DNA of 52,931 nucleotides, the filler included, from Bipalium vagum (Eukaryota), in the NCBI GenBank assembly GCA_037834085.1. It is 3 parts of 3 records of this genome, joined end to end, with 100 filler letters (N's around TTAATTAATTAA, not from the genome) between each part and the next. Parts side by side here need not be neighbours in the genome. Positions count along the whole stretch, not along the records: positions 33,731 to 52,931 come from JBBMKC010007725.1; 2 more parts are not named here. The stretch is one strand, 5' to 3'. The notes beneath the pieces are model-generated. The model was not told the origin of the DNA, made no database searches, and worked only from the letters and a program-made list of their open reading frames with translations. Positions 74 to 51,165 of this stretch are shown here, in pieces (within the stretch, counting starts at the first letter, position 1; each line of letters starts with the position of its first letter). The position numbers were made by a program, and so were the translations under genes.

Positions 74-830
74 GTATCATTTAATGAAAATCAAATGAAA
101 ATCTAATTAAAAATTAATTCAAAATATAGTGAAATATTTGTATCAAAATTTGAAAGTAAATTATGCAAATAGTTGAACTAAATCCCTCCATATAAATTGG
201 TATTTAATATTTATAAACAATGGGGAATGAAGGCAATTTGGGCTTTGGTAATTAATCAAATTAGGGAAGAAAACGCAGTACAAAACAGAAAATGCCATTG
301 ATGGTTAATTGATAGACTCTGCTCAGTGTTGGGAAACATTTAACAACAGTCCGTGGAAGGGGATTTGTTTTTAGATAATTATATTGCAAACAATGACATC
401 GGCTTTGAAGATTTTATATGAAAACAATTAATTAAAATATTAACAAAAATAATACCAAGATATTTCCAAAAGAACACTAATGCCATTTGGATAAAAGTGA
501 AATACATTTCTGAATGGAATTCCTTTAATCAATGATGATAGGGTTTCGGAAACAAAGGGTCAGGTCCTTCAATATGTGCAATTCTTTTTATCGTTATTCT
601 TTTGCAGACAGATTTACTAATACTTTTTCCATACTTCAGCCAACCCACTTTGTTTTTGTCTTTCCTGGAAACATTTTATATTTATATCTGTTTGTCCGAT
701 TAAGTTGTTGGATAAATAATTATAAAGGTTCAAAGCAATCAAGGTTTTATTTATTTCTCTCTTATATTTTAATTTAAAGTTGAGCAGTTTTAAGTTTTCA
801 AAAGACACTGAGACCTGTTCAATCTTCAAC
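72..830 (-). mobile_element. Possible 3' remnant of a non-LTR retrotransposon (LINE)
   Basis: Broken minus-strand frames give ...VWKK... and ...EQSLSINHQWHFLFCTAF..., loosely like a LINE ORF2 C-terminal Cys/His region, ending in an (ATT)n tail. Weak. Confidence 0.3.
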
Positions 831-1430
831 TTTAGAAAAATATGATATCAAAATATTTAATAAAATTTTAAAAATATAAAGTTCAATTTCAAAGAACAAA
901 AAAGAGCGAGAAAAAACAGATCCATTGAAATGCTTGACCAAAAGGTCGTGTCGACATAATTAAATAGGTTTACTTCTTAACTTTATCATTATTCCATAAT
1001 AAAAAGTCAAATCTTTTCTAATAAAATGATACTCATGAAGCATTAATACAAAATAATTATAAATTGGGTTGGTGAATAAATTCTGCATTATTTTTATCTA
1101 ATAAAATCAAAATCAATTATTTTATTTGAAGAATCATCAATCGAACTTTGTTTAAATAATATTTATTAAATATTGCGGTAATTTAATTGTGTAACATAAA
1201 CATTTTCTATTAATTGTATTTTCAGAATGGATAAGTCTGATTAAACTAAGGGCGAAAATCTGGCGCATAAATTGGTACTGATAAAATTATGTGATTAGAA
1301 ATAAAAATTAAACAATAACTATTTTTTATTCATTTTGTCATCTTCCAAAATCTCCTGCTTAGAGGACGTTTAAGGTTGAAGATTTTGTAGTTTATCTTTT
1401 CCAGCAACTAAACTTTTGCAACATAAGTTA

Positions 1431-1916
1431 CATGGTTCTCTCAAAAAGTTTCTGGACAAGCCTAATAAGCATGTTAATTTTTAAAAGATTTTTATATCAT
1501 TTAAAGCCACCAGTTTGTGATAGTTACTATACAGAAATTTATTCGTGTGTGTTTATTTTATTGACGTCTCCATTTAAAAGTATCTTTGTCTGACTTTGCC
1601 TCACTGACTACAAATGGACGATGCTCCGGTTCACACAAGCCGTATCACTCAAGAAGCAATCGACAAGGAAGAATTAATGCTCTTACTTCACTCACCGTAC
1701 AGTCCTGATTTGGTCCCTTCTGATTACTGTCTTTTTTGAAAATGGATAAACCGCCTTCGTGGAATGATGTTTGAGTCATCATATGACTTAGAGGAGACTG
1801 CTCGCTCTTTCTTTGATGAGCTTCCTATGGATATTTACCATGATGCGTTTAATGACCTTCCGGTTGTCTGGACAACATATATTGATGCTGATAGGAACTG
1901 GTTTGAAAATGTATGA
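1431..1916 (+). mobile_element. Internally deleted mariner (DD34D) relic, transposase C-terminus
   Basis: TA then TIR-like CATGGTTCTCTCAAAAAGTTTCTGGAC. From ~1608 it reads LQMDDAPVHTSRITQEAI..LLLHSPYSPDLVPSDYCLF*..RGMMF..DRNWFENV* (YSPDLAPSD motif). Confidence 0.9.
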
Positions 1917-2475
1917 TGTTGTACTTGTAAAATGTTAGAGAATGGCAGTGATAGGATTGATAGAGAATCACCTAAGAGAAAGGTTTCCACTTTCATGGTT
2001 TGCATTTAAATATTTATGAATTTTCTTATTTTGTCAATAGAGATTGTATGATTATTTTCAATAAAGTTTTGTTTGAAAATTTTTATAATAATTAATAAAA
2101 CATATTTTGTTTTAATATTTTAAAAAATGTTTCATTTTATATAAATATATCGATTATAATTTTCAAAATTCTTTTCATAAATATAAGTTTCAGAAAAATA
2201 AAAAAGTATCGAAATAGTTTAAAATTTTATGCAAAATATATTTTTTAAATAATTTATTTTAAATAAAGTTAGCCTTTATTTAATAAAAAAAAATAAAAAA
2301 AAGACCTGATAAATTTTTGTTTGATTTTATAAATCATAAAAAAAATAATATTAACAAATTTGATATCTTATCATTGAATAAAGGCATTCTTATTTTGCTT
2401 TTTAAAAAACACATTTCAAAAATAAAATTAATACTCCTTAAGTTTTTAAATTAATTTTTTAATTTCATAAATTTA

Positions 2476-3190
2476 CAGGGGTTTTAATCTCATTTCAAAT
2501 ACATATCTTCTTATGCCTTATATGATGAATCCAAATTGTTCTTCGTCATGAGGTAGGCTTCAATATATCCATGCGCTCAAGAAAAGGAAGATCATTTTGT
2601 GGAAAGAGAACAATTTATGTTGTACGTGTGTTGCGGTCACGTAACATCTCCGCCTGTTGCCCAATGAATAAAAATGGAATTGTCCATTATCACGCACAGA
2701 CGACTGCATTTAACACGATTACATTTCAGGCGTTTATAACCGAATTAATAGCAAAAGATTTAATTCGAGAACATGAATCTGTAGTAATTATAATGGACAA
2801 TGTTCCATTCCACAAATCGACAGTCATACGTGAAATGGTAGAAGAATGGGATCATAGGGTATTGTTTTTGCCTCCTTATTCTCCGTTTCTAAATCATATT
2901 GAGAACGTATTCTCAAAATGGAAACAAAGCATCAGAAAAGCTCGTCCTGAAAAAGAAAAAAAAGGAAATTTAATAAGCGCTGATGATTGTAATTCTTATT
3001 ACAGACACATGTTTAAATTCCTAACAAAATGTATTAATAAGGAGCCCACCTATGATGATTAAATGTTTATATGTAAAGACATGCAATACATCTTCTTATT
3101 TTTATTCTTTGAAATTGATTTATTTTTGAAATTGATTTACAAAAATTTGAAATGAAGTTACAAATAGTTGAAATGAGGTTATAAACCCTG
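2476..3190 (+). mobile_element. Internally deleted IS630/Tc1-type DD34E element with both TIRs and TA target duplication
   Basis: TA|CAGGGGTTTTAATCTCATTTCAA ... TTGAAATGAGGTTATAAACCCTG|TA. ORF 2571-3062 has IIMDNVPFH-(34 aa D to E)-LPPYSPFLNHIENVFSKWK. Subterminal TTGAAAT(T/G)A repeats at 3109-3175. Confidence 0.93.
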
Positions 3191-4349
3191 TATATACCTT
3201 CTATTTGTTTTAACGAACTTCGCAGATTTTAACTTAATTAGATTTCGTATCTCATTTTTAATATTTCTTAATTTTTATTAATTTCTAAGTTTTATATTAA
3301 TAAATTTTATATATTAATAGAAATAATGCTAAATAAGTTATTTATTTTCTCATGTTATCAGTATTGATAATAATAATAATAAAAATAAAACAAATTTTAT
3401 AAATAATAACGATATCATTTTAACGGTAATTAGAACTTAACGAGCTATAAACCATTAAAGTCGTCAATTTGAAGAAATCAAATTATTAATAAATCTTATT
3501 CTAATTGATTTAATTTCACCATTCGATCAATGATTTACTGAAGATCAGGTTTTCTCTTCAAATAATTGAGTTGGCAATTCCATTTCCTGTTGTACATGAA
3601 TGAAGGAAGAATCTGCTAATTCTCAACCCATGTAACTGATGATTTATTGGATCCAAGACTCAAAGAGAACGATGTACTGAAAAGGAGAAAGATGAATGTT
3701 TGAGTTGCTGAAATGGAAATAAATGAAAATTATTAAAAGAAAATAAATTTAGAAAAATAAAATAATTATAAAAAGTTTTTCTATGAAATAGTTTTTATAT
3801 AAAATTATATTTTTATAAATAATCAATAAAATGGTAAAAATTAAATTATTATAAATAAAAAAATAAAATTTAATAATAAAAATAATAATATTATTTTACT
3901 TTTAATTTAATAATTTTATGAAAAAACAAAAATACTAAAAACAAGTAAATAATAAAAAGATTTGGAAATATCACATTTATCAAAATAAATAAATGTTAAA
4001 AATTAGAAAAAAATTTTTAAAAAAAATTTTATATATAAATATATTATTTTAAGTAAATAAAAATGATTTCCATTTTTGTAAATAATTAAAATTCTCAATT
4101 TTAGAATAGAAAATTAATTATAACTGCATATTTTACCTTCGGGTATTTTTATTATTGATTAATTTATTTTTATTTGAAATAAAATAATTTTAAAGTGATT
4201 TCAAAACGGATATAATGACAAAAAAGAGTTACTCTTTTTTGAATTATATTAAAGTTTAATATTAAAAAAGTATTATAATAATATTTCCACAATAAAAAAT
4301 TATAATATTAATTTTATAATTTATTTAATTTTTTTATTATCGAATAATT

Positions 4350-11619: not shown

Positions 11620-12297
11620 AGAATCTCATGGACAATCGATTACGAAAATCAATTATCAGGTCTGATGAAAATTGGATTTACTTGATAAATCAAAACAAAC
11701 AAAGCCAATGGGTGAAGGCAAAATCGGTTTTGTAAGAAAGTAATGATCTGTGTTTGGTTGAATTTCGAAGGTGTCCTTCATTTCAAACGTATTCCAGATG
11801 GAAGTAAAAATAATTCAAATCTATACTGTGAACAACTAAACCGAGTCTTCGAAAAGCTTAAATAAAAATATCCCATACTTTTTCGTCGAAAAAGGGCTCT
11901 CTTTCACCATGATAATGCAAATCACACAGAGCAAAGAAGAGGCGAAAAACAAGTTCACAGAATTCGAAGGGCATCGAAGTTCTTCCACATTAACGATACA
12001 GTCCTGATGCCGCACCATCTGACAATCCACTTTTTTGGCTCAATGCAGCACTACCTGCTTGGCCTGGGATTCAAGTCAGTGGATGAAGTTGAAGAAGCAT
12101 GCAATGATTTCTTTCAATCAAAGAAAGGAATGGAATTTCAATCAGATTCGGATGCTTACAGATCGGTGGGAGAGCATTGTAAGGAATGGCGGACTTTACT
12201 TTGAAAATTAGATCAAACTGTTTTCGTTTTGTTTAATAAATTTTTATTATAATTTTTATTTTTCTGTCAGTGCTGCAGAACGTATTCCCCAATCTAA
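11620..12297 (+). mobile_element. Mariner (DD34D) 3' half with right TIR
   Basis: IIRSDENWIY, KVMICVWLNFEGVLHF, LFHHDNA, YSPDAAPSD..HFFGSMQHYL..RNGGLYFEN*; right TIR CTGCAGAACGTATTCCCCAATCTAA|TA. Confidence 0.9.
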
Positions 12298-15750: not shown

Positions 15751-16790
15751 TTATTCGAAGTGTCCACCTTCATTTTCTAAGCATGCTTCCAGCCTATGAG
15801 TGACATATTCCACGGCTTCTTGAAGGTTAATTTCTGTCACAATCTGTACAGCTTGGATGATACGTTCCTTCAGTATTTCACGACTATTTGGGCGATTGCC
15901 GCCTGGATAAACTTTTTCTTTCAAGAATGACCATAACCAGAAATCCAGGGGTGTTAGATCAGGGCTTTGGGCAGGCCATTCGTTAGGAAATCCTCTTGAA
16001 ATTATTTTTCCAGAACCGAAAGTGTTTTCCAAGAATACTCTTGCTTGTTTGGCAATATGGGGAGCAGCACCATCTTGTTGGAAAATTAAACGGTTAAATC
16101 TCGGCATTGATTTGAGACTCGGAATAAGATAGTGAATAAGCATATCCAAATATCGTTCCGAATTTATAGTCTGACTATTGCCATTATCCTCAAAGAAATA
16201 TGGTCCAATAAGAAAGGAAGACGACATCGCAATGAATACGTTGACCTTTGCCGAGAATGTTGAGTATTCAACCACATTATTTGGATTTTGCGTCACCCAA
16301 AATCGAAGATTTTATCTGTTCACCCATCCATTGAGATTGAATGAGCATTCATTACTCCATATAATTCGGTATATAAATGTATCATCCTTAGATATATCTG
16401 ACAGCATCCCTTTGCAAAAGGCATAACGATTTGCCTTATGTTTGTCTGAAAGAGACTGCCCAATTATGACTTTATAGAGAAATAATTTCAATTCACGTCT
16501 GAGATACGTGTGAACTAATCCAATAGAGGAACCTGAATCAGAACTCAGTTTCCTTATGCTCGTAGAAGTTCCCTCTGCTTTCATCTGGTGTAAAACCGTA
16601 TCAATATCATTTCGATTCTCTTCTGAAGCACGAGGAGATCGCACATTGTGATCTTTATTAATGCAACTAGTTTGCTGGAATTTAAAAATAATCTTTCTTA
16701 TTTGCTGTACTGAGGCGTGTCACTCTTTCGTTTTATTTTTTTCGGTTGAAAATTTTCTCTGAGTTTCAGCGAACTCTAAGTTTTAAAAAA
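15751..16790 (-). pseudogene. DD41D-like transposase, frameshifted (ORFs 16312-16644 and 15751-16296)
   Basis: IIWSNECSFNLNGWVNR, KVNVFIAMSSSFLIGPYFFE, IFQQDGAAPH-(42 aa D to D)-WPAQSPDLTPLDFWLWSFLKEKVY, RLEACLENEGGHFE. The first catalytic D appears as N. Confidence 0.93.
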
Positions 16791-16881: not shown

Positions 16882-16981
16882 NNNNNNNNNNNNNNNNNNN
16901 NNNNNNNNNNNNNNNNNNNNNNNNNTTAATTAATTAANNNNNNNNNNNNNNNNNNNNNNNNNNNNNNNNNNNNNNNNNNNN
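16882..16981. other. Assembly gap with synthetic six-frame-stop linker
   Basis: 44 N + TTAATTAATTAA + 44 N = exactly 100 bp. Confidence 0.97.
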
Positions 16982-18250: not shown

Positions 18251-21121
18251 CTATTTGATTCTGAGGATAATATAATTTATTCACAAAAAATGATTTATAA
18301 CATGTATAAGTTAGGTTTTAGATATTTAAACTTACAGAAATTTAGAAGAATCTGTCTTTTCGGGAATATATGGTTTTTGAAGATTGGTAACTGAAAACCA
18401 TATAATATATTCTGAGGTTTTCAAATATAACTAAACGGGCTAGTTCATTAAACTTAAAGGTGAAAGAAATCAACATGTTCAATTAATTTAATTTTAAAAC
18501 TGTTTAGAAACTTACTGAAATTGAAAAAAAACAGTTTATTAGCAATTACTTTTTTTGGAAATCTATTTTTTGTTTCACAAAAAGCATTATTCGCTAATAA
18601 ATCATCAAAAACACAACTAATCAAATAATGCGCAGAACTGTCCATACTGTCCTTTTTAGATACTCCAGTGCTTAGTGTTAACGAAACTAAATTGTATTTT
18701 CAAGATGACTGGAATAATCGATCACAAAAGCAAAAATTTTTTAGACATAAGTAGTGGTAATAGTTTAAAATTGTAAATCAAAATCATCCAAATTCATTCC
18801 CATAAAAATAATAAGTGAAATGTTAAATTTTATTTTAAATTTACTTCAATACAGCAATTTGTACAATTGAAAATATTGAATATGGTTTTAACTATTTTAA
18901 GAATTCAATTTGTATTACTACATTTGCAAAATAAAACTTTTTTAAAACGTTATTCTATAAGATGACAGAAAATCACGTCGACAAAATAAAATACATCCCA
19001 CCATTCTAAAAATAGAATTATATAAAAAAGATTATTAATATTCTTAAAGTACATTTTTTATTACTTCAATATAACATATTTAATATTATTGATTATTATT
19101 TTCATAGAAGTCAGATCTACAATTATATCCATACATCTGGTGGGAAAATGGCAATGTGAGAAATCAATTAATGCATAGAAGACAGTCAAACGATCCAAGA
19201 GCTTGACCATTATGGCTACCGCACAGGAAGAGGAAGAAAACGAAAAGTAAACATTACCAGAACCTATAAAATCATCAGAAAGCACAAAGATAAATCCCAG
19301 GCTTTCCATGAAAAAAATAGCATAAAAATTGAATATAAACAGGAAATCTATATGTTGTATAGCAAAACAGGAGTTTGGACTCAGGCCATACGAATACCAC
19401 AAATTCAAACTATAAAAAAGGCTTGCTCGATGCCGGTTACTTATGGGTCGCGCCGTAGAGTTGTAGAGAAAATTCTCTTCTTTGATGAGAAAATGTTTAC
19501 AATTAAAGAAAGTCAAAATAGCCAAAATGACAGAAGGTGGTCTCAAGAATCTCCTAAGGCTAAAATTATAGAATATATGCAAAATTCAAAATCTGTTATG
19601 GTATGGGAGGGATTTGTTTAACGCACAAAATACCCTTCGTTTATAGAAAAAGGAATCAAGTCAATGCAGGATTCTACAAACAAAATATTTTACAATCCAT
19701 AGAGAAGCCTTGCGCCCAACAGTATTGTGGGGAACAACATATTCCAATAGGACTCAGCCACGGCGCATAGAACTAATTCAACACAGCAGTTCTGAAAGAA
19801 GAATTTCCCGGATTTTATCTCTTCACCTCCATATTCCGCAGATATTAAAGCCTATGGATTACAGTTTTTGGCCTATTTTAGAGACAAGAGCGTATTCTAT
19901 GAACTACAGAAGTGTAACTTCACCCAAGGCCTCAGCATTTCCAGAATGGAACAAAATAAAAACAGAAGACCTGTGGTGAATTTTTATTTTCAAAAACGCT
20001 TACAGCTCTGTATACATGCCAAAGGTGGCATTTTTGAATATTTTTTATATTAAAGACTTTTTTTGCTGTTAATTAACCTTTTGTGTTCGCAAAATTTTAA
20101 AAATATAGCTAATTGTGCTTGTCAACGTGATTTTCTGTCACCCTGTGTTATTATAACGAAAGATTTTATTAAAGAATCTTACTATAAATTTATGATATTT
20201 TTATTGGTTATGGTCACCATATTATTGATTTTTGTTAATACTATTATTTGATATTTTTTCTGTTACAAAATAGTTTAAGGAAAACTTAATTATAAAGCAA
20301 AATTAATATATCCAATAATTTAATTTTTTCCGGTGAGACTGAAAAATAATTTTGTACTTTTAAATTCCCTTTATTATTAATAATTAAATCCCCTACCTTA
20401 CTTTTCCTACATATATTTGTATTTGAAAAGAAATACTTTTGACATTCCGCAAATTAACGAATCTGGTCAGTCCACCATAAAAATTTAAATCGCAATAAAT
20501 ATCTAAAAACTTGCGACTCTCACTTTAAATTAATGTTTTAATATTTTACCAAATACCTTGAAACATCTTTCTCGTTTGTAATGCGCTATATAGTGTTAAA
20601 CTTTAATAAAAGTAATCAGTCATTATTAATGAATTTAAAAAATTAAAGGGAACCTTGAGATGAGTAAAAATTATAAATAAGTCTCATTTAAATAAGCATT
20701 AATAAGTTAAAAAATTTAAAACCACATTTAACAAGGTTGAAAAGTTAAATAAATTTAAAAAAAGTTATTAAAAAATAAGAACTTTAAAAATGTTAAGTTT
20801 TTATACCATTTAAAGGATTAAACTGATTAACTAACAAAAATAGATCATTAGAACTTTTCGTGACAAATTAAATAGATCTTTATTTGTCTTTAAAAATCTA
20901 AAATAAATACAAATTTGAGACTGAATAGTAAAGCAAACATAAGTTCATTAAAACTATAAGAATTACCAAAAATGAAAGAAATTATCAATAAATAAACATA
21001 TTATTTTCTGTTTTACAAAGGGTTTTTGAAGATAGATTTTGATAAAATCATAAACTATTGATGTTTATATATACTTACTTTGATTAAAAGTTAACAATAG
21101 ATGAAAAAGACCTATCCTCAG
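18251..21121 (-). CDS. Candidate multi-exon gene, 3' portion, unknown product
   Basis: AG/GT-bounded, phase-compatible exons 21121-21079, 20585-20550, 20502-20437, 18686-18516, 18390-18336 and 18260-18251 join into one open frame (LRIGLFHLLLTFNQTHYKRERCFKVFDIYCDLNFYGGLTRFVNLRNVKISLTLSTGVSKKDSMDSSAHYLISCVF...TNLQKPYIPEKTDSSKFLIK*). Three donors are GTAAGT. No recognisable domain and no start exon found. Confidence 0.4.
18958..20145 (+). mobile_element. maT/DD37D-like element, near full length, degenerate
   Basis: TIRs TAAGATGACAGAAAATCACGTCGACAA / TTGTCAACGTGATTTTCTGTCACCCTG; ILFFDEKMFTIKESQNSQNDRRW, SVMVWEG, FQ*DSATAH, PMDYSFWPILE, KRLQLCIHAKGGIFE. Confidence 0.92.
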
Positions 21122-33630: not shown

Positions 33631-33730
33631 NNNNNNNNNNNNNNNNNNNNNNNNNNNNNNNNNNNNNNNNNNNNTTAATTAATTAANNNNNNNNNNNNNN
33701 NNNNNNNNNNNNNNNNNNNNNNNNNNNNNN
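33631..33730. other. Assembly gap with synthetic six-frame-stop linker
   Basis: 44 N + TTAATTAATTAA + 44 N, identical to 16882-16981. Confidence 0.97.
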
Positions 33731-35559: not shown

Positions 35560-36888
35560 TTGTTAAATAGAAAAAGATCAACATTATCATGTTTTCATTT
35601 CCTCAATTTTATTATTAAATACTTGTGTTTTTTGAGTTTCGTTCGATCAATGAGAGTCAAACAATTAATTGACATGACATATAGATGCTCCAATTTAAAG
35701 AAAAACAAATATATTTCACCGCCCTACTTAGCGTGTGAAATACAAAAAAAATAGAAGGTAGCTAAGAGAAAGAGCTTAAAAAATTATTTGATTCTCAGAT
35801 CCTGGTCTGAGTATTTAATTAATATTAATTTCTACAAACTGTGTCTTGTCTAACAGGACACACTTGGCTAGTTAGATATGAATATATGTGCAATACTAAT
35901 ATTATTATTATTGATCGGGACCAGTCCTAAAATCTTTGATCTTAAGACGGTTTATATTATATTATATATATAAACTGATGATAGATATAATCGTACTCTA
36001 TTACTGCAATATAATTCAAGTATGTGTAATTATTATTTAGATAAAGTATAAACGTAATTATAAACTTTAAACGACTATTATCCAACACCAAATATTAAAC
36101 TAAAAAAATATAAAAAAAAAATACGTTTAAATAAATAAATATATTAAACTTTGACACTATTCAGTATCAAGTCCGAATGAGAGATAATTACTTTTTTTAT
36201 AAAAAAGCGTAAAATTCAATGGTTGGTAGTTCGTCTGTAGTTCGTGATGGATGCTGTTAGAATCCTCTGGTTTGAAGACTGCGGGGCTTTTGGTTTAATT
36301 TAGTATCGAATTGGAATGTTGGAATATCGAATTAGAATATCAAGTTGGATTATTTGAATTGTAGGAAATACTCGATATAGTTGACCGATTATTCTGGCTG
36401 TCCTTCGTTAAGTTTCGCAGTCCTTTTTATATGATGCTGAATTTTATTATCGCTGATTTCTTCCTGTAATTTCAACTTGATCTTCGCTGTGTCCTTCCGG
36501 CAATTTGCTGTGGTTGCTTTCTCTGAAATGAATCCTGGTCGATGTTAATAATTGTCGAATAATTGCTTAATTGCTGAAGGGTTCGTCGTATAATTGTCAA
36601 ATGATTGGTATTGTAAAATTACTGAGAGATTGTTGTCAAATAGTTTTTTTACGATTGTTTTTACAATTCTAATATTTATAATATTTTTTTTGTGTGTCAC
36701 TTTAGAATTTTTTACCGTCTTTTATACAATTATTTTCTCCTTCTTTTTATTTTTAGTAAGTGTCTTTTCCCTTAATTAATTTGCTTTTCCCTCTTACTTT
36801 CCAATTTTACCATTTGCCTATGAAATTTCTTTTTAAATTTTTATTTTTAGTAACTTAATGTTACTTTAAAATTTTCTTATATAAATCT
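35560..36888 (-). mobile_element. LTR-like segment, truncated by the gap
   Basis: Same layout as 14509-15564: skewed A-rich U3-like part, TATAAAAAGG at ~36431, GC-richer R-like part, AT-rich spacer, hairpin-rich U5-like part, possible ...TTAACA end at 35561. No PBS or TSD confirmed. Confidence 0.45.
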
Positions 36889-37020
36889 NNNNNNNNNNNN
36901 NNNNNNNNNNNNNNNNNNNNNNNNNNNNNNNNNNNNNNNNNNNNNNNNNNNNNNNNNNNNNNNNNNNNNNNNNNNNNNNNNNNNNNNNNNNNNNNNNNNN
37001 NNNNNNNNNNNNNNNNNNNN
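36889..37020. other. Assembly gap (132 N)
   Basis: Run of N. Confidence 0.98.
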
Positions 37021-37323
37021 TAATGATAATTCCCACATATTAATCTACTACTTTATACTATATCTTGTTTATTATATGATCTACTTTTAATTTATTATTA
37101 TTCGTTTATCGTTTATTATTATTTAAATTTAATTATTACTTAATTATTTTTTGGTCAGAATTGGTTTACATTATTTCCACAACACATTCAATAGGTATTG
37201 TAATGGAAATAATTAAATTTATTAATGATTATTGTTTAAATAATCATAACAGGACCGATATCATTGTTTTTGAAATATACTTTGGTACTATGGATTTTCT
37301 TGATAATACTGAACAGATTAACA

Positions 37324-37341
37324 TGGCGACCACACCAGGAC
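37324..37341 (+). promoter_or_regulatory. Primer-binding site, tRNA-Arg type
   Basis: TGGCGACCAC... directly follows the CA terminus and is complementary to a tRNA 3' end ...GTGGTCGCCA; a near-identical motif precedes the Gypsy gag at 48198. Confidence 0.7.
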
Positions 37342-37481
37342 ACCAACCAGCGGACGAGGTCTCGGAAGTAAAAAATGAAAAGGAATTGAATGGAAATAGA
37401 AGTAAAAGAGACTCGGGGCGGTTAAGGATATGAATGTGAGGTTTAAAAGAGGGGGATGTGAGATAAATTGAAAATTAGTCG

Positions 37482-37524
37482 GGGGATGTAGCTCAGCGGT
37501 CAGAGCATTGCATGCGCATGTGAA
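37482..37524 (+). pseudogene. tRNA-Ala-derived 5' half (acceptor strand, D arm/A box, CGC anticodon region); not a functional tRNA
   Basis: GGGGATGTAGCTCAGCGGTCAGAGCATTGCATGCGCATGTGAA versus metazoan tRNA-Ala GGGGATGTAGCTCAGTGGTAGAGCGCATGCTTCGCATGT; T arm, B box and 3' acceptor strand are absent. Confidence 0.8.
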
Positions 37525-37706
37525 TAATGCGATAAACACGATTGGAAGTTCACACAATTATTATAGAGAGTTTTTTCGTGCAAAGAGAAAACAAAAGAAC
37601 AATTTGATAAACACGATTAAAAGTTCACACTATTAGATTGTCATGCACCAATAATCATAAAGTTTTTTAGGATGAGTTTTTCTGGTTGTCCGAATTTATT
37701 GGTGCT

Positions 37707-37710
<4 letters not shown>

Positions 37711-37741
<31 letters not shown>

Positions 37742-37760
37742 TATATATATACTATATATA
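37711..37760. repeat. (TA)n microsatellite next to a Tc1-like terminus
   Basis: TA run preceded by GTCCGAATTTATTGGTGCTGTAC, which resembles a Tc1 right TIR. Confidence 0.85.
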
Positions 37761-38963
37761 TCCTCGTTGTCTCCATATATATATAAACAAATAATTAATA
37801 TATACTGTATAAAAATGTATAAAATGTATAAAATTTTTACTATTTTATTGAACACCCTAAAAAGGTTTAATAAATTTTAAAATATTTTTTATTTTGAAAT
37901 TTTCATTGAGAATAATGAAGTTATATTTTTATTATTAATGAGAGAGTAGTAATAAATTCATATAAATGCCTTATTGTACCTCATTGTAACCGTAATCAGA
38001 AAACCAAGGTTTTCTAAATTTCATATTAAAACTCCTTTTTTATTGTAACAAATTAATAAATTATATGGAAGTAATTAATACTATTTTTGTTTAATGTAAA
38101 ACAAAGTAAACTGATATTTGAAAATTTTAAGCGAAGAAAAGATTTTTATTATAATTAATAAAACAAAAAATATGGATCAAGGATGAGAAGAAATAATATA
38201 TATATTTATTCAATCTTCAAACCGAAAAACAGTTATAAGTGAAAACATAAAGTGAAATGAAACGATCTCTATCTCCATTAACTACCTAGATATTTATCTT
38301 GGAAGTTTTATCAATATTAGAAAAATCTGAAAAATGATTTATAGTCTAAAATATAATCTATGAAAATCCTTATTTTAGAATTTCAATAAATAACAATTAT
38401 GTTCTTAGGATTTACAGAAAATTGATGGCTACAAAATATCATATTTTATAATCGACAATTTATTATTAAGTTCTTTTACATTTCCATTAGAGAAGCATTA
38501 AAAATTAATATCGAACACATTCATTATAAAATATTATTAATATTAAAAATCGTTATTTATCCAAAAATGTCCATTGTTTACTGATTTCTCATTGTTCTCA
38601 ACTCCATTGTAAGTTTATTTTATATTTCCCTTTCATTTTTTAAAGAAATATGTTATATACTTAATTTTGATATCAAATAAACTGACTATGTTACTGATGT
38701 TCTGGATAATTTAGTGGTTGTTTCGTTATATTGTTCTCGAAATTTAGTGAGCTTAATCTCAGTTGGTATTTCATTAACAATAGGAAGTGTATAAATTTAC
38801 AATAAAAAGTGAAAATCTAATTCTTTTCATTGTAAAATTGTCATCCATCGATAGTATAAATTAGTGAAGATCTTTACATTTAATTGTCTGATCGTTATTA
38901 CGAATAATATCGGTCTTTTACTGTATTAACTGTCACTTTTATGTTAGACCCGATTTGTAAATA

Positions 38964-39503
38964 ATGGGTGGCCAATAAAGAATGATAAATTGTTTCAATA
39001 CATTTTTTTAAACTAAAAAAATTAAATTTGAATTATTAATTGATTTAATTTATCCTAAGGTTTTTAATATCTTGCAAAATAAACATAGCTGTCACAGAAG
39101 CAAAGAAACAATTGCGACATTCAAAAAGACTGGTATTTCAATAATAGCTCTAAATCATTGGCCACCAAATTCACTAGATCTTAGTCCTTTTGATTATTTC
39201 TTTTGGGATGAAGCATCAAAGAGACTGAAAACAAAAAAATTTGAAAATCGTACAAAACTGATTGAAAAAATTAAAGAAACAATTGCAGAAATTCCATTAA
39301 ATATGATCCGCCAAGCCATCGATTTCTTTCGACAAAGAGTTTTGGCCATAGACAGGCACAAAGGAAGTTTAATAATAAACTGTTTTAATTAAATAAATTT
39401 TGATTTTATTCTTTATTAAATACTTTTAATTGAGTTAATTTAACATTATGTTGTCTATTTCAAACGTCATTCAAAGAATTATCATTCTTTATTGGCCACC
39501 ACT
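38964..39503 (+). mobile_element. Internally deleted DD37D element (540 bp) with both TIRs
   Basis: TIRs GGTGGCCAATAAAGAATGATAA / TTATCATTCTTTATTGGCCACC; ORF 39072-39392 has QN(D)KHSCH-(37 aa)-WPPNSLDLSPFDYFFW. Confidence 0.92.
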
Positions 39504-39869
39504 TAATACTTCTGGTGATATTTCCGGTGATGAAAAATGGTGTATATTAATGAATTATTTAAAATCTATGTTCAACAATAAAAATTTATTTCTGTTTTAA
39601 TTTACGTTGTGGTGTGATTTATGATTTTTGATCTATGCATATTTTGAATAATATTCGATTCAAGGATAATAGTAATGCGAGATGAGATATAAGTTACTTT
39701 CCTATTTAAAAATTGAAAAAAATTGTTTGTTAATGAACTACTTTATTATTCCTAATGAAATAAATAGTCAAAAATGGAATTTTATTTTAGCTATTTAATG
39801 ATGTCGCATTAAAAAATCTCATTATTCGTTTTGGAAGTGGAGACTTTAAGAAATTTTCTATGAGAGGTC

Positions 39870-45161: not shown

Positions 45162-45545
45162 TTAAGTTGTAATGAAAAAAATTGCGGTTTTTAACACTGA
45201 ATCTTAAACAAATTTTATTCATCAAAATAGAAACAATTACACTGCACCCATTTCTCCCAACGACTCACAAGCTTATTTATCCCGATTCGATAAAAATCTG
45301 GGTTCTAGATGTTACAAAATCTTCAAAGGCTCTAATGACATCATTAAGGAAGCTTCTCTCGTTGAAGAACTTGTTCAATTTTTTGAAGAAATAATAATCA
45401 GTAGGCGAGATATCTCGTCGGTAGGCTGGGTGAGGCAGAATTTCAAAATCAAGTTGGTTCAATTCTTGTACTATAGATTGGATGACTTGTGGTCTAGCGT
45501 TATCATGGAGAAGTATCTGATCTCTTTTCAAATGCCTAAAAAATT
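45162..45545 (-). mobile_element. Mariner 3' fragment with TIR
   Basis: ORF 45277-45531 has ILLHDNARPQ..FEILPHPAYRRDISPTDYYFFKKL (DD34D); TIR TATTAAGTTGTAATGAAAAAATTGCGG. Confidence 0.9.
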
Positions 45546-45839
45546 TTAGATAACTTTTTTATTAAAGTTTTTTATTGATTTATCTTTTCAAAAGATTTCG
45601 CTTTAAGATATAAGCAAATTTATATTAATAAAAAAATTTCATTTAACAATTCATAAAATCAAGTCATAAAAACCGTCAATAATTTCTTTACAAGCTAATA
45701 ATTATTAAAATTAAACATTCTCACATTATGATGATAATTGGTTGTAAAAATATTTATCGATTTTAAAAATACAATTTTAAACAATAATATAAATTTATGA
45801 AGATTAATTTACAAATACCAAAAAATAATATTTATTTCT

Positions 45840-46065: not shown

Positions 46066-48197
46066 TTTGTTACTTAAAATTAAAAATTGAGAATAAATAA
46101 ATTTGTCTTCAAATCAAAAATTTTCTATAAGAAGAAATTTTAAAGGTACTTAAAGAAATTTTCTTTCTTGGTTGTATCCTTACATCGATTGGTTCTTCAA
46201 TTTAATTAATTTAATTAATATTAATTAATAGATATCATTCTAAGGTAATGGACCACTATAGTCATTGGTCATTTAATTTAATTATTTTGTCTTTTAAATT
46301 TTTAAAGAAAAATTTTATTTTATACCAAATGCAATATCTGCTTAAGCATTTAAGGAAAGAAATTGATATTGAATAATAGAAAAGTGAATAAAAGATATAA
46401 AATTGAATTTTTTTATTAATCTAATGAAAGCTAGTAGTAATAATTAATTATTATTTCTTTAAAATAAATATAATAATATTATAAAATTATAATATAATAA
46501 TATAATAATAATTTAATTTTAATTTTACTGATATTTCATTTAACTAACAAATTTTAAAGGATTAAGAATATTAAGATTGTTTTTAGTGCCAATACATAAT
46601 GACAATAGTGTAAATAGCACTTGTATACTGTATATACGTCTCTTTTGGATTTGTGTACTTAACATTTAAAAAACCGGTTTTATAAAAATCACAGTCGAAC
46701 AAAATTGGTTTTAATATTGTGAAAAGTAAAAAATCAATTGTGAAAGGTTTTGGAAGAATAATGATATTTAATTAAACAAAAATTTCTTTTTATGGAATAA
46801 TTAATAATTTATTTTTGTTCTAATTTAAATTAAGATACCAAAATATTTTTTTATTTTTGAGTAATTTTTTCAAAAGATTTTACTTTGTTCTTTGGTTTAG
46901 AATGTAATGGGTAAGCTATTTTAGTTCTATTTATTATTTTTTATTTATTTATCCTTTTTTATCAAGTTCTTGTGCTATTTTAAATGCAGAAACAATGATA
47001 AATCACATTTTCTAACATATTTTCTAATATAATGTTTGTTTTTCTAACCATCCTAACCATTTAATCTACGTAGGATTCTATATTTACAAATTGTAAATTT
47101 TCTCCATTAATATTAATAGATTAAAATTGTATTTGGAGATGTAACATCAGTTATTCCTTATCACAGATATATTTTTGAAACTTAATCTTAGAATTGGGCC
47201 ATTATGTATTGCAAATGATCTCAAAAGAAAATTAGTAAAACAAACAAAAAAGTCAGACATAATAATAATTATTATATTCTTATCACTGGTGCCAATAATT
47301 ATTATAATTATGATGTTGCAATTATCAATATAATATATTACTTGTATAGATAGATAATTTATTAATAATCATATAAAATAATAAAACAATTTTCATTTTA
47401 TAAAGTTTGGCTTTCACTTCCTTACTTTATTAAATATTACTGAATGATACACAAAGCCTAACTGCCAAATAAATTCTTGTGATTTCGAAAGATTGTCATT
47501 GTAAAACCGAGACTTGATGACTGATTTTTATCATTTTTATCAAATAATTTTTAGCATCTGTTTCCGTAGTAATAAATGTGTAATAAATTTTAATTAAATT
47601 TATTTTCTCACAATTTAATTCTTTTTATAAAAATTAAGAGAAATATACTTTATTTATTTTTTTATATTTAACATCAATATATATGTTACATTTAATATCA
47701 AAAGTTTAAATTCATAAATATTATATTTAATTACAATTTTAATAAAATGTGTTATTACATTTAATAATTTTAATTAAGGCTATTTGGATTTTAATTTTAA
47801 AATCATAATATAACGTAAATTAAAATGCAAACTTTCTAATAATAGGAACATTTAAAATAATAATTTGAATAAAAATTAAAGTGTTTTTTAAATAATTTCA
47901 TAATTTAATGTATTATTGTAAATTAAGTGTGGCAGTTAATTTTGCGGATTTTTAAGAAATCAAAACAAATTTACTTTGAAAACATAGTATTAAATTTCAA
48001 TTAACATTTCTCATCTTTTTAAAAAGCCTTCTTTTAATGAATATCGACCTTGCAATGGAATTTAGTGGTTGTTCCGGATAAATCAACTTTGTGTTTATGG
48101 TTATCAAAATAAATCTATCTGTTGACGCTTGTAATTATTGTAATTATATTTTTGAACTCGACTTCGTTTTATTAATTAATATGAAAGAAAATCTGAC

Positions 48198-49923
48198 TGG
48201 CGACTACACCGAAAATATTAGCGTCGTAACGAGAAGACAAGAAAGAAAGAACACAGTAATTAGTAAATTTCCAGATCCGTACATTTAATGAACGGAGCTC
48301 GGCAGAAGCAGAGGGATGAATAAAAATAAATCGACAAGTGGCTTAACATAAATGATTTATGTTTGATCGGAGTTTTTCATTTTTTACTCTCGGAAGAAAA
48401 AGGAAACTCTTCGAAAGAAGAAGCGAGAAATTGGTTAAAGGAAACTTTTATAGTGGAAAAATCATTTCTAGAGATTCTAATGGAGCGAGCAAAACGCGGA
48501 TTAGAGGTTTGCATCATTTGAGATTCGGATCCGTAATCTTTCAGGCAACCTAATGGATTCTGAATTATCAAGAGATGAAATGGTTACAGATTTCCAGCTA
48601 AAAAGAACAAGAAGCAATAGACACAAAGAAACACTCATGACGAAATCATATATTAAAGTAGAAAATACCAGACGTTTGGCAAAGGGAACAGAAAAGGGAA
48701 AAGTGCAAGATAACACAATACGATCAAAGTTACATAAAGATAGTTTAGGGTGAACAATATCAAAGACGAACGAGGCCTTTGAATACCTGGACTCAAAACT
48801 AATCAGACCAGCATGGCGTTATCATTATAGCAAGTTGAATGAGAGAATCTCATGATGCTAAGCGCCGTGATACCCGAGATGTAATACCAATTAGACATGA
48901 AAAATTTTTTGTTGATCGAAGAGACCCTCCGAATCTATAATAGATGTAGATGCTTACAACCATCAAGAGACGAACAGGTTCGACCAGGTCAGTGTTTTTA
49001 AGAATGCACTGTCCATTGAAGAATGTATGCTTAATATGTGAAAAGGACGAACATCGTTTTCTCCGTCTTGTCCGAAGAGAGTCCGAAGATGAAACGTAAA
49101 TCAGTATGGAATATTAATGAAAGGTGAAAGTTTACAAGACGGACCATGGTATAACAAAAGCATTCCAGTCAAAAACCCTGAATAGAAATTTAAGTGTACC
49201 GTTGTTTAAGACGGTGGACTTAGGTGAAGATGGATGGACAGATATTTGAAATTTTATGGGATTCTGGTGCTTTGGTTACCGTGTTGAGTGAAGCATGCTG
49301 GAAGAAGATAGGAATACAGAGAATCTCTAATTGTCTTTAAAAATACGTCCGAGTTTCATTGGTGGTGTCGACATGATTAAGAAGTTTGATATCCAATTAT
49401 GTGAGATCAACAACATTAAAGCAAGTGATGTGGTAAAAAATATCTCAGATGAACATCGAATAAATTACACATTGGATTATTTTAAAAATGAACGAAGTAT
49501 ACAGTTATGTAACATATTGTATCAATTTTGACATTGGACAAACATCGTTGGTTCATCACGCCCATCTTGTAACAACCAAGAAGACAACCGATGGATCTAA
49601 AAGAAAAAATTAATGAAACGGTTTCCCAACTAATTTCAGGTGGAATAATTTCGAGATGTAAAAGCCCTTGGTATTCTCCACTAATTGTACCGTTGTAGTC
49701 GGAAAGAAGGATGATTCAATTTGGATGTGCCTGGATTTCAGGAGAGTGAATACCATCACGAAGAAATTCAATTTTCTGATACCCGATATGAAGATGTTGT
49801 TAGACAGCCTAGCTGATTAAAAATATTTTTGTCCATGGACTTGAGACAGGCATACTACAAAGTTCCGTTTTCAGTGGAACCAAGGTTGATAACAACTTTT
49901 AGAACTAAGCAGGGACAGTGGGT
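48198..49923 (+). mobile_element. Degenerate Ty3/Gypsy retrotransposon: PBS, gag with CCHC knuckle, protease, RT N-terminal half
   Basis: PBS TGGCGACTACACCG (48198); VCLICEKDEHRF (~49025); ILWDSGALVTVLSEACWKKIG (~49255); GIISRCKSPWYSPLI..KKDDSIWMCLDFRRVNTITKK..LSMDLRQAYYKVP..TTFRTKQGQW. Many stops and frameshifts; cut off by a mariner. Confidence 0.93.
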
Positions 49924-49925
49924 TA

Positions 49926-51165
49926 CGTGGTGCGCTCATTAAGTACTTAGATTTGATAGGAAATAATTACTTTATAAAAAATATTGAAAGTGATTAATTC
50001 TAATATATATAGGTAATGAAAAGGTAGTTTTGTTCTTCTAAAAAATTTTTGTTTTTATAATAATTGCAATATTTTAAAAAATGATAGACAATGTTGAATT
50101 TTGTAGTGTAATCAAATTTCTGCTATTGAAGCAAACAAATAGCCAAGAAATTATTAATCAACTGCAGAGCGAGTGCCATTGTAAAGCAACTATTTATAAT
50201 TGGATTAGGTAATTCAAAAGTGGCCGAACTAGTGCTTTTAGGTCTGAGAAATCTGGCAGACCTGTTGACGTTGAAGATGCGAAGAAGGAAATCCTGTTGC
50301 AAATCAGCATTAAAGACCGTCGTATTCTAACAAAAGACCTCGCGTAATGTCTAAACATCTCAAAAGGTACGTTGCATGAAATTAGCATTAGAAGGCTGTG
50401 TTCACAATTTCTCGCAGGTGATATGCAACAACGTCCACTAAAGTGTTGTCAGAAAAATTTGGAGAAAAAAAAACTAGAAGATGCTTTTATCAATAACATA
50501 ATCATGGAAGATGAGACACCTTTGAGCTTGTATATACCGGAAAGTAAACGCGAATCTACTGAATGGAAGATGTCAGGGTAGAAACCAACACTAAAAATGA
50601 GAACTGGGACATCTCATAAAAAATGTTTGATGTTGACAATCTTTTAGGATATGAAAGGTATTTTCAAAGTCGATTTTGTGCATCTGTTGTCAAATTCATT
50701 TCAGAATATTATGCAAAACTTATAAAGGAAGTAAGAGGAAAACGACAAAAAGGAGGAAAGACTGGACTGCGGCTCTTGCATGATAATGTCCCAATCCACA
50801 AATACAATCTGACAAAAGCCTACAATTGATTCGTGTGGATTGTCACTCGTTCCTCACCCATGATACATTCCCGATCTAGTTCCCATTGACTTTCACTTCT
50901 TCCAACAGCTGAAGAAGGATATGTGAGGAAAACGATTTGATTGTGCCTTTGATTTGCAGCACTATGTCACGGATTTATTGAAATCATACTTCAAAATCTT
51001 TTATGAAAAAGGTATTTTGAATTTAGTGTCTCGTTGGCAAAAATGTGTGGAAGTTGGTGGAGGTTATTTTGAAAAATAAATATAGACTTGCTACTTGTTT
51101 ATTATTGAAAGTTTAAATAAAATCAGTTGTATATTTCAGTCTAAGTACTTAATGGGCGCACTACT
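49926..51165 (+). mobile_element. Full-length degenerate mariner (DD34D, irritans-like) inserted into the Gypsy RT
   Basis: TA|CGTGGTGCGCTCATTAAGTACTTAGA ... TCTAAGTACTTAATGGGCGCACTACT|TA; TIYNWIR*FKSGRTS..SGRP, IIMEDETPLSLYIPESKRESTEW, LLHDNVPIH, PHP*YIPDLVPIDFHFF, RWQKCVEVGGGYFEK*. Confidence 0.95.

What the first reader, a model, noticed from the sequence alone, without database searches (positions are those of the whole stretch)
37021..37660. Miniature LTR retroelement whose LTR carries a tRNA-Ala-derived half gene (possible Pol III-driven TRIM)
Seen: in order, an LTR-like end (..TTAACA), an 18-nt tRNA-Arg-type PBS, only 133 bp of internal DNA, a polypurine tract AAAAGAGGGGGA, then TGTGAG..; 25 nt into this second LTR sits a tRNA-Ala 5' half with an intact A box (TAGCTCAGCGG). 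Known: TRIMs have this LTR-PBS-PPT-LTR layout; Cassandra carries 5S rRNA and, as I recall, Helenus carries tRNA-like sequence in the LTRs. Inference: this may be an undescribed small-RNA-gene-derived TRIM family in this lineage that borrows Gypsy enzymes. Caveats: the 5' LTR start is lost in the gap, the 3' LTR is cut near 37660, and no canonical B box is visible.
Basis: partly seen in the sequence, partly recalled or inferred. Interest (0 to 1): 0.72.

Follow-up and report, generated by a model that had tools for sequence, protein, structure and literature searches.

The report
Helenus mini-retrotransposon with mismatched LTRs
This is a broken hybrid copy of a repeated, gene-less jumping element whose end repeats carry a tRNA look-alike (a kind described in 2024 as Helenus); its left end comes from a second, tRNA-free repeat joined at their shared primer site, likely a trace of the two being copied in the same particle.

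Summary
The motifs are real, but the boundaries need correcting. Contigs from four public runs show a repeated family with a ~115-bp LTR ('B'). B holds a whole tRNA-Ala-like unit with A and B boxes and is followed by a tRNA-Arg-type primer site, a short internal part and a polypurine tract. That is a Helenus-type TRIM (Kojima 2024). In the window, B is cut at 37524, not 37660, which explains the missing B box. The 5' LTR is not lost in the gap: it is 37199-37323, a separate tRNA-free repeat ('A') unrelated to B. The copy is therefore an A-internal-B hybrid, joined in a 20-nt block around the shared primer site. The same junction stands in contigs of two runs, so misassembly is unlikely. A decayed Gypsy 11 kb away has a like primer site. 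Co-packaging with plus-strand transfer is the likely, untested origin. TSDs, Pol III transcription and the host phylum were not established. This scan already noted solo LTRs of apparently this family in the same genome, and primer-site hybrids in fungi. Verdict: new member of a known kind.

The parts
37021..37198 (+). Host repeat into which the element inserted; not part of its LTR
   Evidence: Summed depth about 150-3,300; one contig joins 37176 to 37601 across the element with 33 letters between
37195..37198 (+). GTAT, candidate left copy of a 4-bp target duplication; the right copy is lost
   Evidence: A related element-free copy of the host repeat reads ATAT here (table 5c). Not a TSD test.
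37199..37323 (+). LTR 'A': 125 bp, TG...CA, 22% GC, no A or B box; a separate repeated family
   Evidence: A-led contigs in X2, X3 and X4 leave the window sequence at 37338 (records 14, 22, 28).
37319..37338 (+). 20-nt block (TAACA plus the first 15 nt of the PBS) shared by A-led and B-led copies; the hybrid junction lies here
   Evidence: Loose ends before 37319 (B end, 67 contigs) and behind 37338 (another internal part, 3 contigs)
37324..37341 (+). Primer-binding site, tRNA-Arg type
   Evidence: 14 of 18 letters match the human tRNA-Arg PBS quoted in PMC11905727. The host's own tRNA was not seen.
37324..37456 (+). Non-coding internal part, 133 bp, 71% purine, with a middle of variable length among copies
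   Evidence: joints; loose ends at 37374 and 37406
37445..37456 (+). Polypurine tract directly before LTR B
37457..37524 (+). 5' 68 bp of LTR 'B', the tRNA-bearing LTR (about 114-115 bp in other copies); cut at 37524
   Evidence: 305 contigs with unrelated flanks before 37457; 261 contigs continuing after 37524
37468..37482 (+). Leader arm complementary (14 of 15) to the motif that follows the tRNA-like unit in other copies; would extend the acceptor stem
   Evidence: output read against table 7 and table 7; the fold itself was not computed
37482..37524 (+). tRNA-Ala(CGC)-like 5' part with A box at 37489-37499 and a poorly paired anticodon arm
   Evidence: Of 122 viral loci holding its first 15 letters, 37 had an ARAGORN tRNA starting there and 21 of the 37 were Ala. 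No tRNA call in the window; no Rfam tRNA hit.
37522..37690 (+). Host repeat resumes; 37522-37560 repeats at 37597-37635 (85%), with a 3-nt GAA overlap at the break in LTR B
   Evidence: summed depth 185-190
48198..49924 (+). Decayed Gypsy-type element whose PBS matches the TRIM PBS in 12 of its first 13 letters; frameshifted protease and RT pieces. Candidate helper lineage.
   Evidence: tblastn of P0042 hits 49343-49924 in four pieces, E 2e-35; P0042 has RT-RNaseH-integrase order.

Best explanation
A repeated, non-coding Helenus-type TRIM family (tRNA-bearing LTR B, primer site, short internal part, polypurine tract, LTR B) lives in this genome, likely transcribed by Pol III and likely copied by Gypsy enzymes, and the window holds a truncated hybrid of it whose 5' LTR comes from a second, tRNA-free repeat (A), likely joined during reverse transcription at the shared primer site. 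Shown by contigs: B has a sharp 5' end with varied flanks; it carries A and B boxes; its 3' end is followed by the PBS; A has its own sharp 5' end and another internal part; the A-PBS-internal junction recurs. Inferred: Pol III starts near the tRNA-like unit of the 5' LTR, reads through the short T run after it, and stops at that run in the 3' LTR. A Gypsy that uses the same tRNA-Arg primer packages both RNAs. The plus-strand strong-stop DNA of an A element (LTR A + PBS) pairs with the minus strand of a B element through the PBS alone, giving A-internal-B, which integrase inserts by its TG...CA ends. A later deletion at a 3-nt overlap removed the 3' half of LTR B. Such hybrids would be dead ends, since their two LTRs share no R region. 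Odds: Helenus-type family about 0.9; hybrid real about 0.85; particle-borne origin about 0.5.
For: Family: 305 contigs with varied flanks before 37457, and 261 continuing behind 37524 with a B-box consensus. 56 and 67 contigs carry the tRNA 3' half and LTR end before 37319. Go-back joints run from 37495-37525 to 37319-37322 in single contigs. Sizes fit Kojima's Table S1, and the leader-tRNA-T run-ACA layout matches the bivalve, brachiopod and nemertean LTRs shown. Hybrid: A and B share nothing. A 276-nt X1 contig runs from 37212 to 37486 with 47 differences (record 3; record 2, taken as the same record from equal length, depth and start). In X2, an A-led record (depth 3.76) and a B-led record (5.34) both overlap the internal+B record (8.9) by 30 nt (records 13, 15, 16). 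The shared block is 20 nt, shorter than the 31-letter words that these overlaps imply. X1 lacks the window's own letters at 36482, 36517, 37051 and 37600, so it is probably not the assembly's source. Helper: a Gypsy remnant in the window has a like PBS; animal Helenus share PBS types only with Gypsy. The second strand transfer relies on PBS homology (PMC6894440).
Against: No whole element, TSD or long read was seen: there is no genome, and Logan contigs are short. Depth sums are not copy numbers (tool warning). X2 record 13 has only 22 letters beyond the shared block, under the tool's 31-letter bridging rule, and X2-X4 are low-depth and could hold carry-over DNA. What follows the PPT in A-type elements is unknown: none of the 14 joints returns to 37199. 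LTR A does not match the 5' end of the window's Gypsy (50 of 1000 shuffles score as well), so A is not shown to be a helper LTR. The review passages describe the second transfer as within one molecule, giving identical LTRs; intermolecular plus-strand transfer in Ty1 is recalled, and that paper was not held. DNA-level recombination also makes chimeric TRIMs (PMC13570524). The lack of T runs in the internal part is no evidence for Pol III: 1922 of 2000 shuffles also lack TTTT.
Confidence: 0.7

Rival explanations
1. The hybrid arose after integration, by DNA recombination, conversion or deletion between an A element and a nearby B element that share the primer block.
For: Chimeric and tandem TRIMs made by recombination are common in sugar beet (PMC13570524 passages). 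This copy has also suffered a later deletion at 37524.
Against: Only 20 nt of homology is available. The same junction recurs in a diverged X1 contig and in X2, which suits a repeated enzymatic route better than chance deletions.
Confidence: 0.15
2. The unit is a replicating three-LTR composite (A-internal-B-other internal-A) that carries the tRNA LTR inside an A-type element; the deletion at 37524 removed its right half.
For: In X2 the A-led junction holds about 40% of the depth entering the internal part (3.76 against 5.34), high for dead-end accidents. A B end followed by the other internal part would share only 20 nt with the window and so could not be seen.
Against: The depths are very low. 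B-led copies with the same internal part exist on their own (67 contigs). No right-hand LTR A was seen.
Confidence: 0.1
3. The join is an assembly error at the shared primer block, next to a scaffold gap.
For: A 132-N gap lies 180 bp upstream, both parts are highly repeated, and no laid contig spans the whole element.
Against: The junction is present in contigs of two other runs, one with 47 differences in 276 nt, and a related host copy without the insert joins the two flanks (table 5c).
Confidence: 0.03
4. B is a tRNA-derived SINE or tRNA pseudogene that landed beside a polypurine tract.
For: B copies with unrelated flanks outnumber those seen before the PBS (305 against 56 contigs).
Against: B starts with TG right after the PPT and ends in CA right before the PBS in many contigs; solo LTRs in excess are usual for Helenus (Table S3).
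Confidence: 0.02

Closest known systems
Animal Helenus (tRNA-bearing TRIMs, 'TRIMp3'), Kojima 2024, PMC10886601; closest in layout: bivalve, brachiopod and nemertean families such as Helenus-2_TeGr and Helenus-1_NGe
   Same: Short TG...CA LTR with leader, tRNA-like unit (A box TRGCY..YGG, B box GGTTC), T run and short tail; PBS for a tRNA 3' end; PPT; total near 360 bp, within the 311-1263 range.
   Different: No listed family matches: 0 hits for five motifs and for an 8-letter PBS motif, though motifs broken by line ends would be missed. The PBS type is not in Fig. S2, whose Arg PBS is another type. The tRNA-like unit still looks like Ala and sits in a ~15-bp inverted repeat. The window copy has two unrelated LTRs, which the parts of the paper read do not describe.
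Cassandra and Ajax (5S rRNA-bearing TRIMs)
   Same: TRIM with a Pol III-type promoter in the LTR.
   Different: The promoter here is tRNA-like; no 5S match.
ta-TRIM of taeniid cestodes and its candidate helper lennie, Koziol 2015, PMC4558846 (passages)
   Same: Non-coding TRIM sharing PBS and LTR ends with an autonomous element; mostly 4-bp TSDs.
   Different: 198-bp LTRs, ~590-bp internal part, tRNA-Leu primer; no tRNA in the LTR mentioned in the passages seen.
Chimeric TRIMs with donated LTRs in sugar beet, PMC13570524 (passages)
   Same: Elements carrying LTRs from two TRIM families; LTRs and internal parts reshuffled.
   Different: Plant families, described as tandem or recombination products; no junction fixed at the PBS in the passages seen.

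Membership tests
Helenus (family B as a whole) | TRIM under 1000 bp without coding capacity | tested here: met
   LTR about 114-115 bp by arithmetic on loose ends plus a 133-bp internal part gives about 360 bp; the one ORF over it has no Pfam hit.
Helenus (family B as a whole) | The same TG...CA LTR on both sides of the internal part | tested here: met
   B follows the PPT and B's end precedes the PBS in 56-67 contigs, with go-back joints in single contigs. Shown from contig pieces; LTR-pair identity not measured.
Helenus (the window copy) | The same LTR on both sides | tested here: not met
   A and B are unrelated; this copy is a hybrid, not a canonical member.
Helenus | tRNA-like sequence in the LTR with A box and B box | tested here: met
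   A box in the window; B box in other copies (tables 5c and 7).
Helenus | PBS directly after the 5' LTR | tested here: met
   37324-37341; 14 of 18 to a published tRNA-Arg PBS. The host tRNA was not available.
Helenus | PPT directly before the 3' LTR | tested here: met
   37445-37456.
Animal Helenus | 4-bp target site duplication | not testable with these tools
   The right end of this copy is lost and no genome is held; only the left 4-mer is seen.
TRIMp3 | Transcription by RNA polymerase III | not testable with these tools
   No RNA data were available; also unvalidated for published Helenus.
Cassandra / Ajax | 5S rRNA-derived segment in the LTR | tested here: not met
   No 5S hit in Rfam at E up to 10 over 37021-37900.
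tRNA-derived SINE | tRNA head at the 5' end with a LINE-like or simple-repeat tail, no PBS or PPT | tested here: not met
   25-nt TG leader, CA end, PBS and PPT context.
Functional tRNA-Ala gene | Complete cloverleaf with a paired anticodon stem | tested here: not met
   For the window copy: no ARAGORN call, truncated, anticodon arm poorly paired. Intact B copies were not tested.

The most novel reading that the evidence does not exclude
A tRNA-free TRIM (LTR A) and a tRNA-promoter TRIM (LTR B) share one primer site and one internal module and exchange whole LTRs routinely, with unlike-LTR elements making up a large share of copies. That would be a live snapshot of how Pol III-driven TRIMs arise or swap promoters, and a sequence footprint that names the co-packaged partner, in a host group (flatworm by earlier unchecked notes) absent from the Helenus list.
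Probability: 0.2. Interest if true: 0.62.

Novelty: new member of a known kind. Interest (0 to 1): 0.38.

Why it matters
It gives the internal part, primer site and full layout of a Helenus-type family that this scan had seen only as solo LTRs in this genome, and it may extend Helenus to a new animal group. Kojima leaves open how these TRIMs depend on a helper whose LTRs they do not resemble. Hybrids joined at the primer site would identify co-packaged partners from sequence alone. In practice, the many tRNA-Ala-like LTRs would inflate tRNA gene and SINE counts in this genome.

Tried and rejected
No whole genome held. No RNA holder listed. The metagenome scan with a 16-mer gave 116 loci (DNA beside the match fetched for 80); none matched beyond 22-39 chance letters or held the PBS. 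The PBS motif gave 0 viral loci and 8 prokaryotic loci matching only 18-23 letters. Rfam found only simple-repeat chance hits. Folding of A, the internal part and the B half gave z-scores between -0.85 and 0.41. The 117-aa ORF at 37080-37430 has no Pfam hit and crosses three unrelated parts, so it was rejected as a gene. The Gypsy RT piece alone gave weak PDB hits (Ty3 RT, E 0.19; none for the second piece) and no indexed homologue before the full search found 106. Absence of T runs as a Pol III argument was rejected. Look-ups of earlier findings by sequence and in relatives were empty.

Full report
Setting. The window is AT-rich eukaryotic DNA, about 25% GC, full of decayed transposase frames. 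No whole genome is held. Family evidence therefore comes from contigs of four coded public runs found with 37021-37690, laid on 36000-38200 and, for X1 alone, on 37130-37472. X1 holds a 1107-nt contig that matches the neighbouring 37884-38200 without a difference, but it lacks the window's letters at several places in the host repeat. It is probably the same or a very close species and not the source of the assembly. I did not establish the host. Earlier notes call it a flatworm, and my attempts to check failed.

Observation. All quoted motifs are in place: an LTR-like end at 37323, PBS 37324-37341, PPT 37445-37456, TGTGAG at 37457 and an A box at 37489-37499. They are not chance. The PBS matches a published tRNA-Arg PBS in 14 of 18 letters. 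The tRNA-like start is mostly Ala where ARAGORN calls a gene on it: 21 of 37 calls among 122 viral loci. The anticodon position reads CGC, but the arm is poorly paired. Letters in other copies would give a G3-U70 pair, the alanine identity mark (recalled knowledge, read).

The family. Summed depth over 37184-37553 is 23,000-155,000, against 4-380 in the flank to the right. These sums show high repetition but are not copy numbers. 305 contigs have unrelated flanks before 37457, so this is a true element end. 261 contigs continue behind 37524 with a B box and the tRNA 3' half, and 56 (67) carry that 3' half and a short T run directly before the PBS. Single contigs go back from 37495-37525 to 37319-37322. 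The normal element is therefore LTR B, PBS, internal part, PPT, LTR B, with B about 114-115 bp by letter count and the whole about 360 bp. The middle of the internal part varies in length. The leader at 37468-37482 is complementary in 14 of 15 letters to the motif after the tRNA-like unit in other copies. Related pieces occur at low depth in X2, X3 and X4; X2 and X3 carry letters that are rare in X1, which argues for related organisms, although carry-over is not excluded.

The window copy. It differs in two ways. First, B is cut at 37524, at a 3-nt overlap with the host repeat; this explains the 'half gene'. Second, the sequence before the PBS is not B. It is a 125-bp TG...CA repeat, A (37199-37323), with its own sharp start (18 contigs with unrelated flanks), no A or B box and no similarity to B. 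A-led contigs in three runs leave the window sequence at 37338 into another internal part (records 14, 22, 28). A and B share only a 20-nt block, 37319-37338. The A-PBS-internal junction also stands in a diverged 276-nt X1 contig and in an 89-nt X2 contig; the X2 contig falls short of the tool's 31-letter bridging rule on one side. A related host copy without the insert joins 37176 to 37601. The copy is best read as a real insertion of a hybrid, later truncated. 37021-37198 is host repeat.

Mechanism. By analogy with Helenus and Cassandra (PMC10886601), Pol III likely transcribes from the tRNA-like promoter and a Gypsy supplies RT and integrase; neither is shown. A decayed Gypsy at 48198-49924 has 12 of the first 13 PBS letters in common, and its best relative has RT-RNaseH-integrase order. 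So Gypsy elements with this primer type exist in the genome, though its 5' end does not match A. Normal replication yields identical LTRs, and the second strand transfer relies on PBS homology (PMC6894440). If that transfer occurs between two co-packaged elements, the product has unlike LTRs joined at the PBS, as seen here. This step is my inference; the Ty1 precedent is recalled and the paper was not held. Post-integration recombination and a three-LTR composite remain open.

Comparison and novelty. Family B meets the testable Helenus features; TSD and Pol III use are untested. The window copy fails the identical-LTR feature and is filed as a hybrid. No published family matched, and Kojima's host table lists six animal phyla and no flatworm. 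Literature searches: Helenus+TRIM+tRNA+LTR retrotransposons gave 4 papers, 3 listed; flatworm+Helenus+retrotransposon gave 0; TRIMp3+tRNA+LTR gave only Kojima; three planarian searches listed no title on such an element; one search for chimeras by intermolecular plus-strand transfer gave 1 unrelated paper. Repbase and most subscription journals were not searchable. Papers seen: PMC10886601 main text parts 1-4 and 6 of 6, supplement parts 1, 10 and 11 of 11 and two motif searches; passages only of PMC11905727, PMC6894440, PMC13570524 (12 of 18) and PMC4558846 (12 of 13); the rest as search listings.

Earlier notes. This scan had already reported tRNA-Ala solo LTRs in this genome and primer-site hybrids of Helenus with Copia in fungi. 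My note of a possible chimera at the PBS came before I saw the fungal reports; they encouraged the helper reading but are unchecked and are not counted as support.

Verdict. A real element and a new member of a known kind. The hybrid junction is the most interesting part and is directly testable with long reads. Interest 0.38.

Noticed in passing
window 47929-49930: Decayed Gypsy-type element with a PBS at 48198 like the TRIM's, a possible LTR from about 47929, and frameshifted protease and RT pieces.
   Followed up: partly
window 36040-37198 and 37601-37690: Host repeat of low to medium copy, containing a very highly repeated AT-rich piece at 36823-36875 (summed depth 42,755 in that bin). A motif at about 37152 resembles the Leu-type PBS of Gypsy-28_NVi in Kojima's Fig. 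S2, so the host may itself be an LTR element.
   Followed up: no
window 37482-37490: The tRNA-Ala-like 5' end itself reads like a polypurine tract followed by TGTA, echoing the element's real PPT-LTR junction; this may have eased capture of the tRNA.
   Followed up: no
window 32598-31610 (- strand): Likely host gene with short introns and a zinc-finger-like exon at 32118-31995; no homologue or Pfam family found.
   Followed up: partly
window 38962-39505: Small Tc1/mariner-like element with 44-nt inverted ends and a transposase remnant at 39012-39392.
   Followed up: no
window 16882-16981 and 33631-33730: Assembly spacers of 44 N, a 12-letter TTAA repeat and 44 N; artefacts that produce false repeats.
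   Followed up: yes
window 2529-3062, 11866-12204, 15751-16719, 19172-19979, 45277-45558: Several decayed DDE transposase frames of Tc1/mariner type; only 2529-3059 has a strong Pfam DDE_3 hit among those scanned.
   Followed up: no
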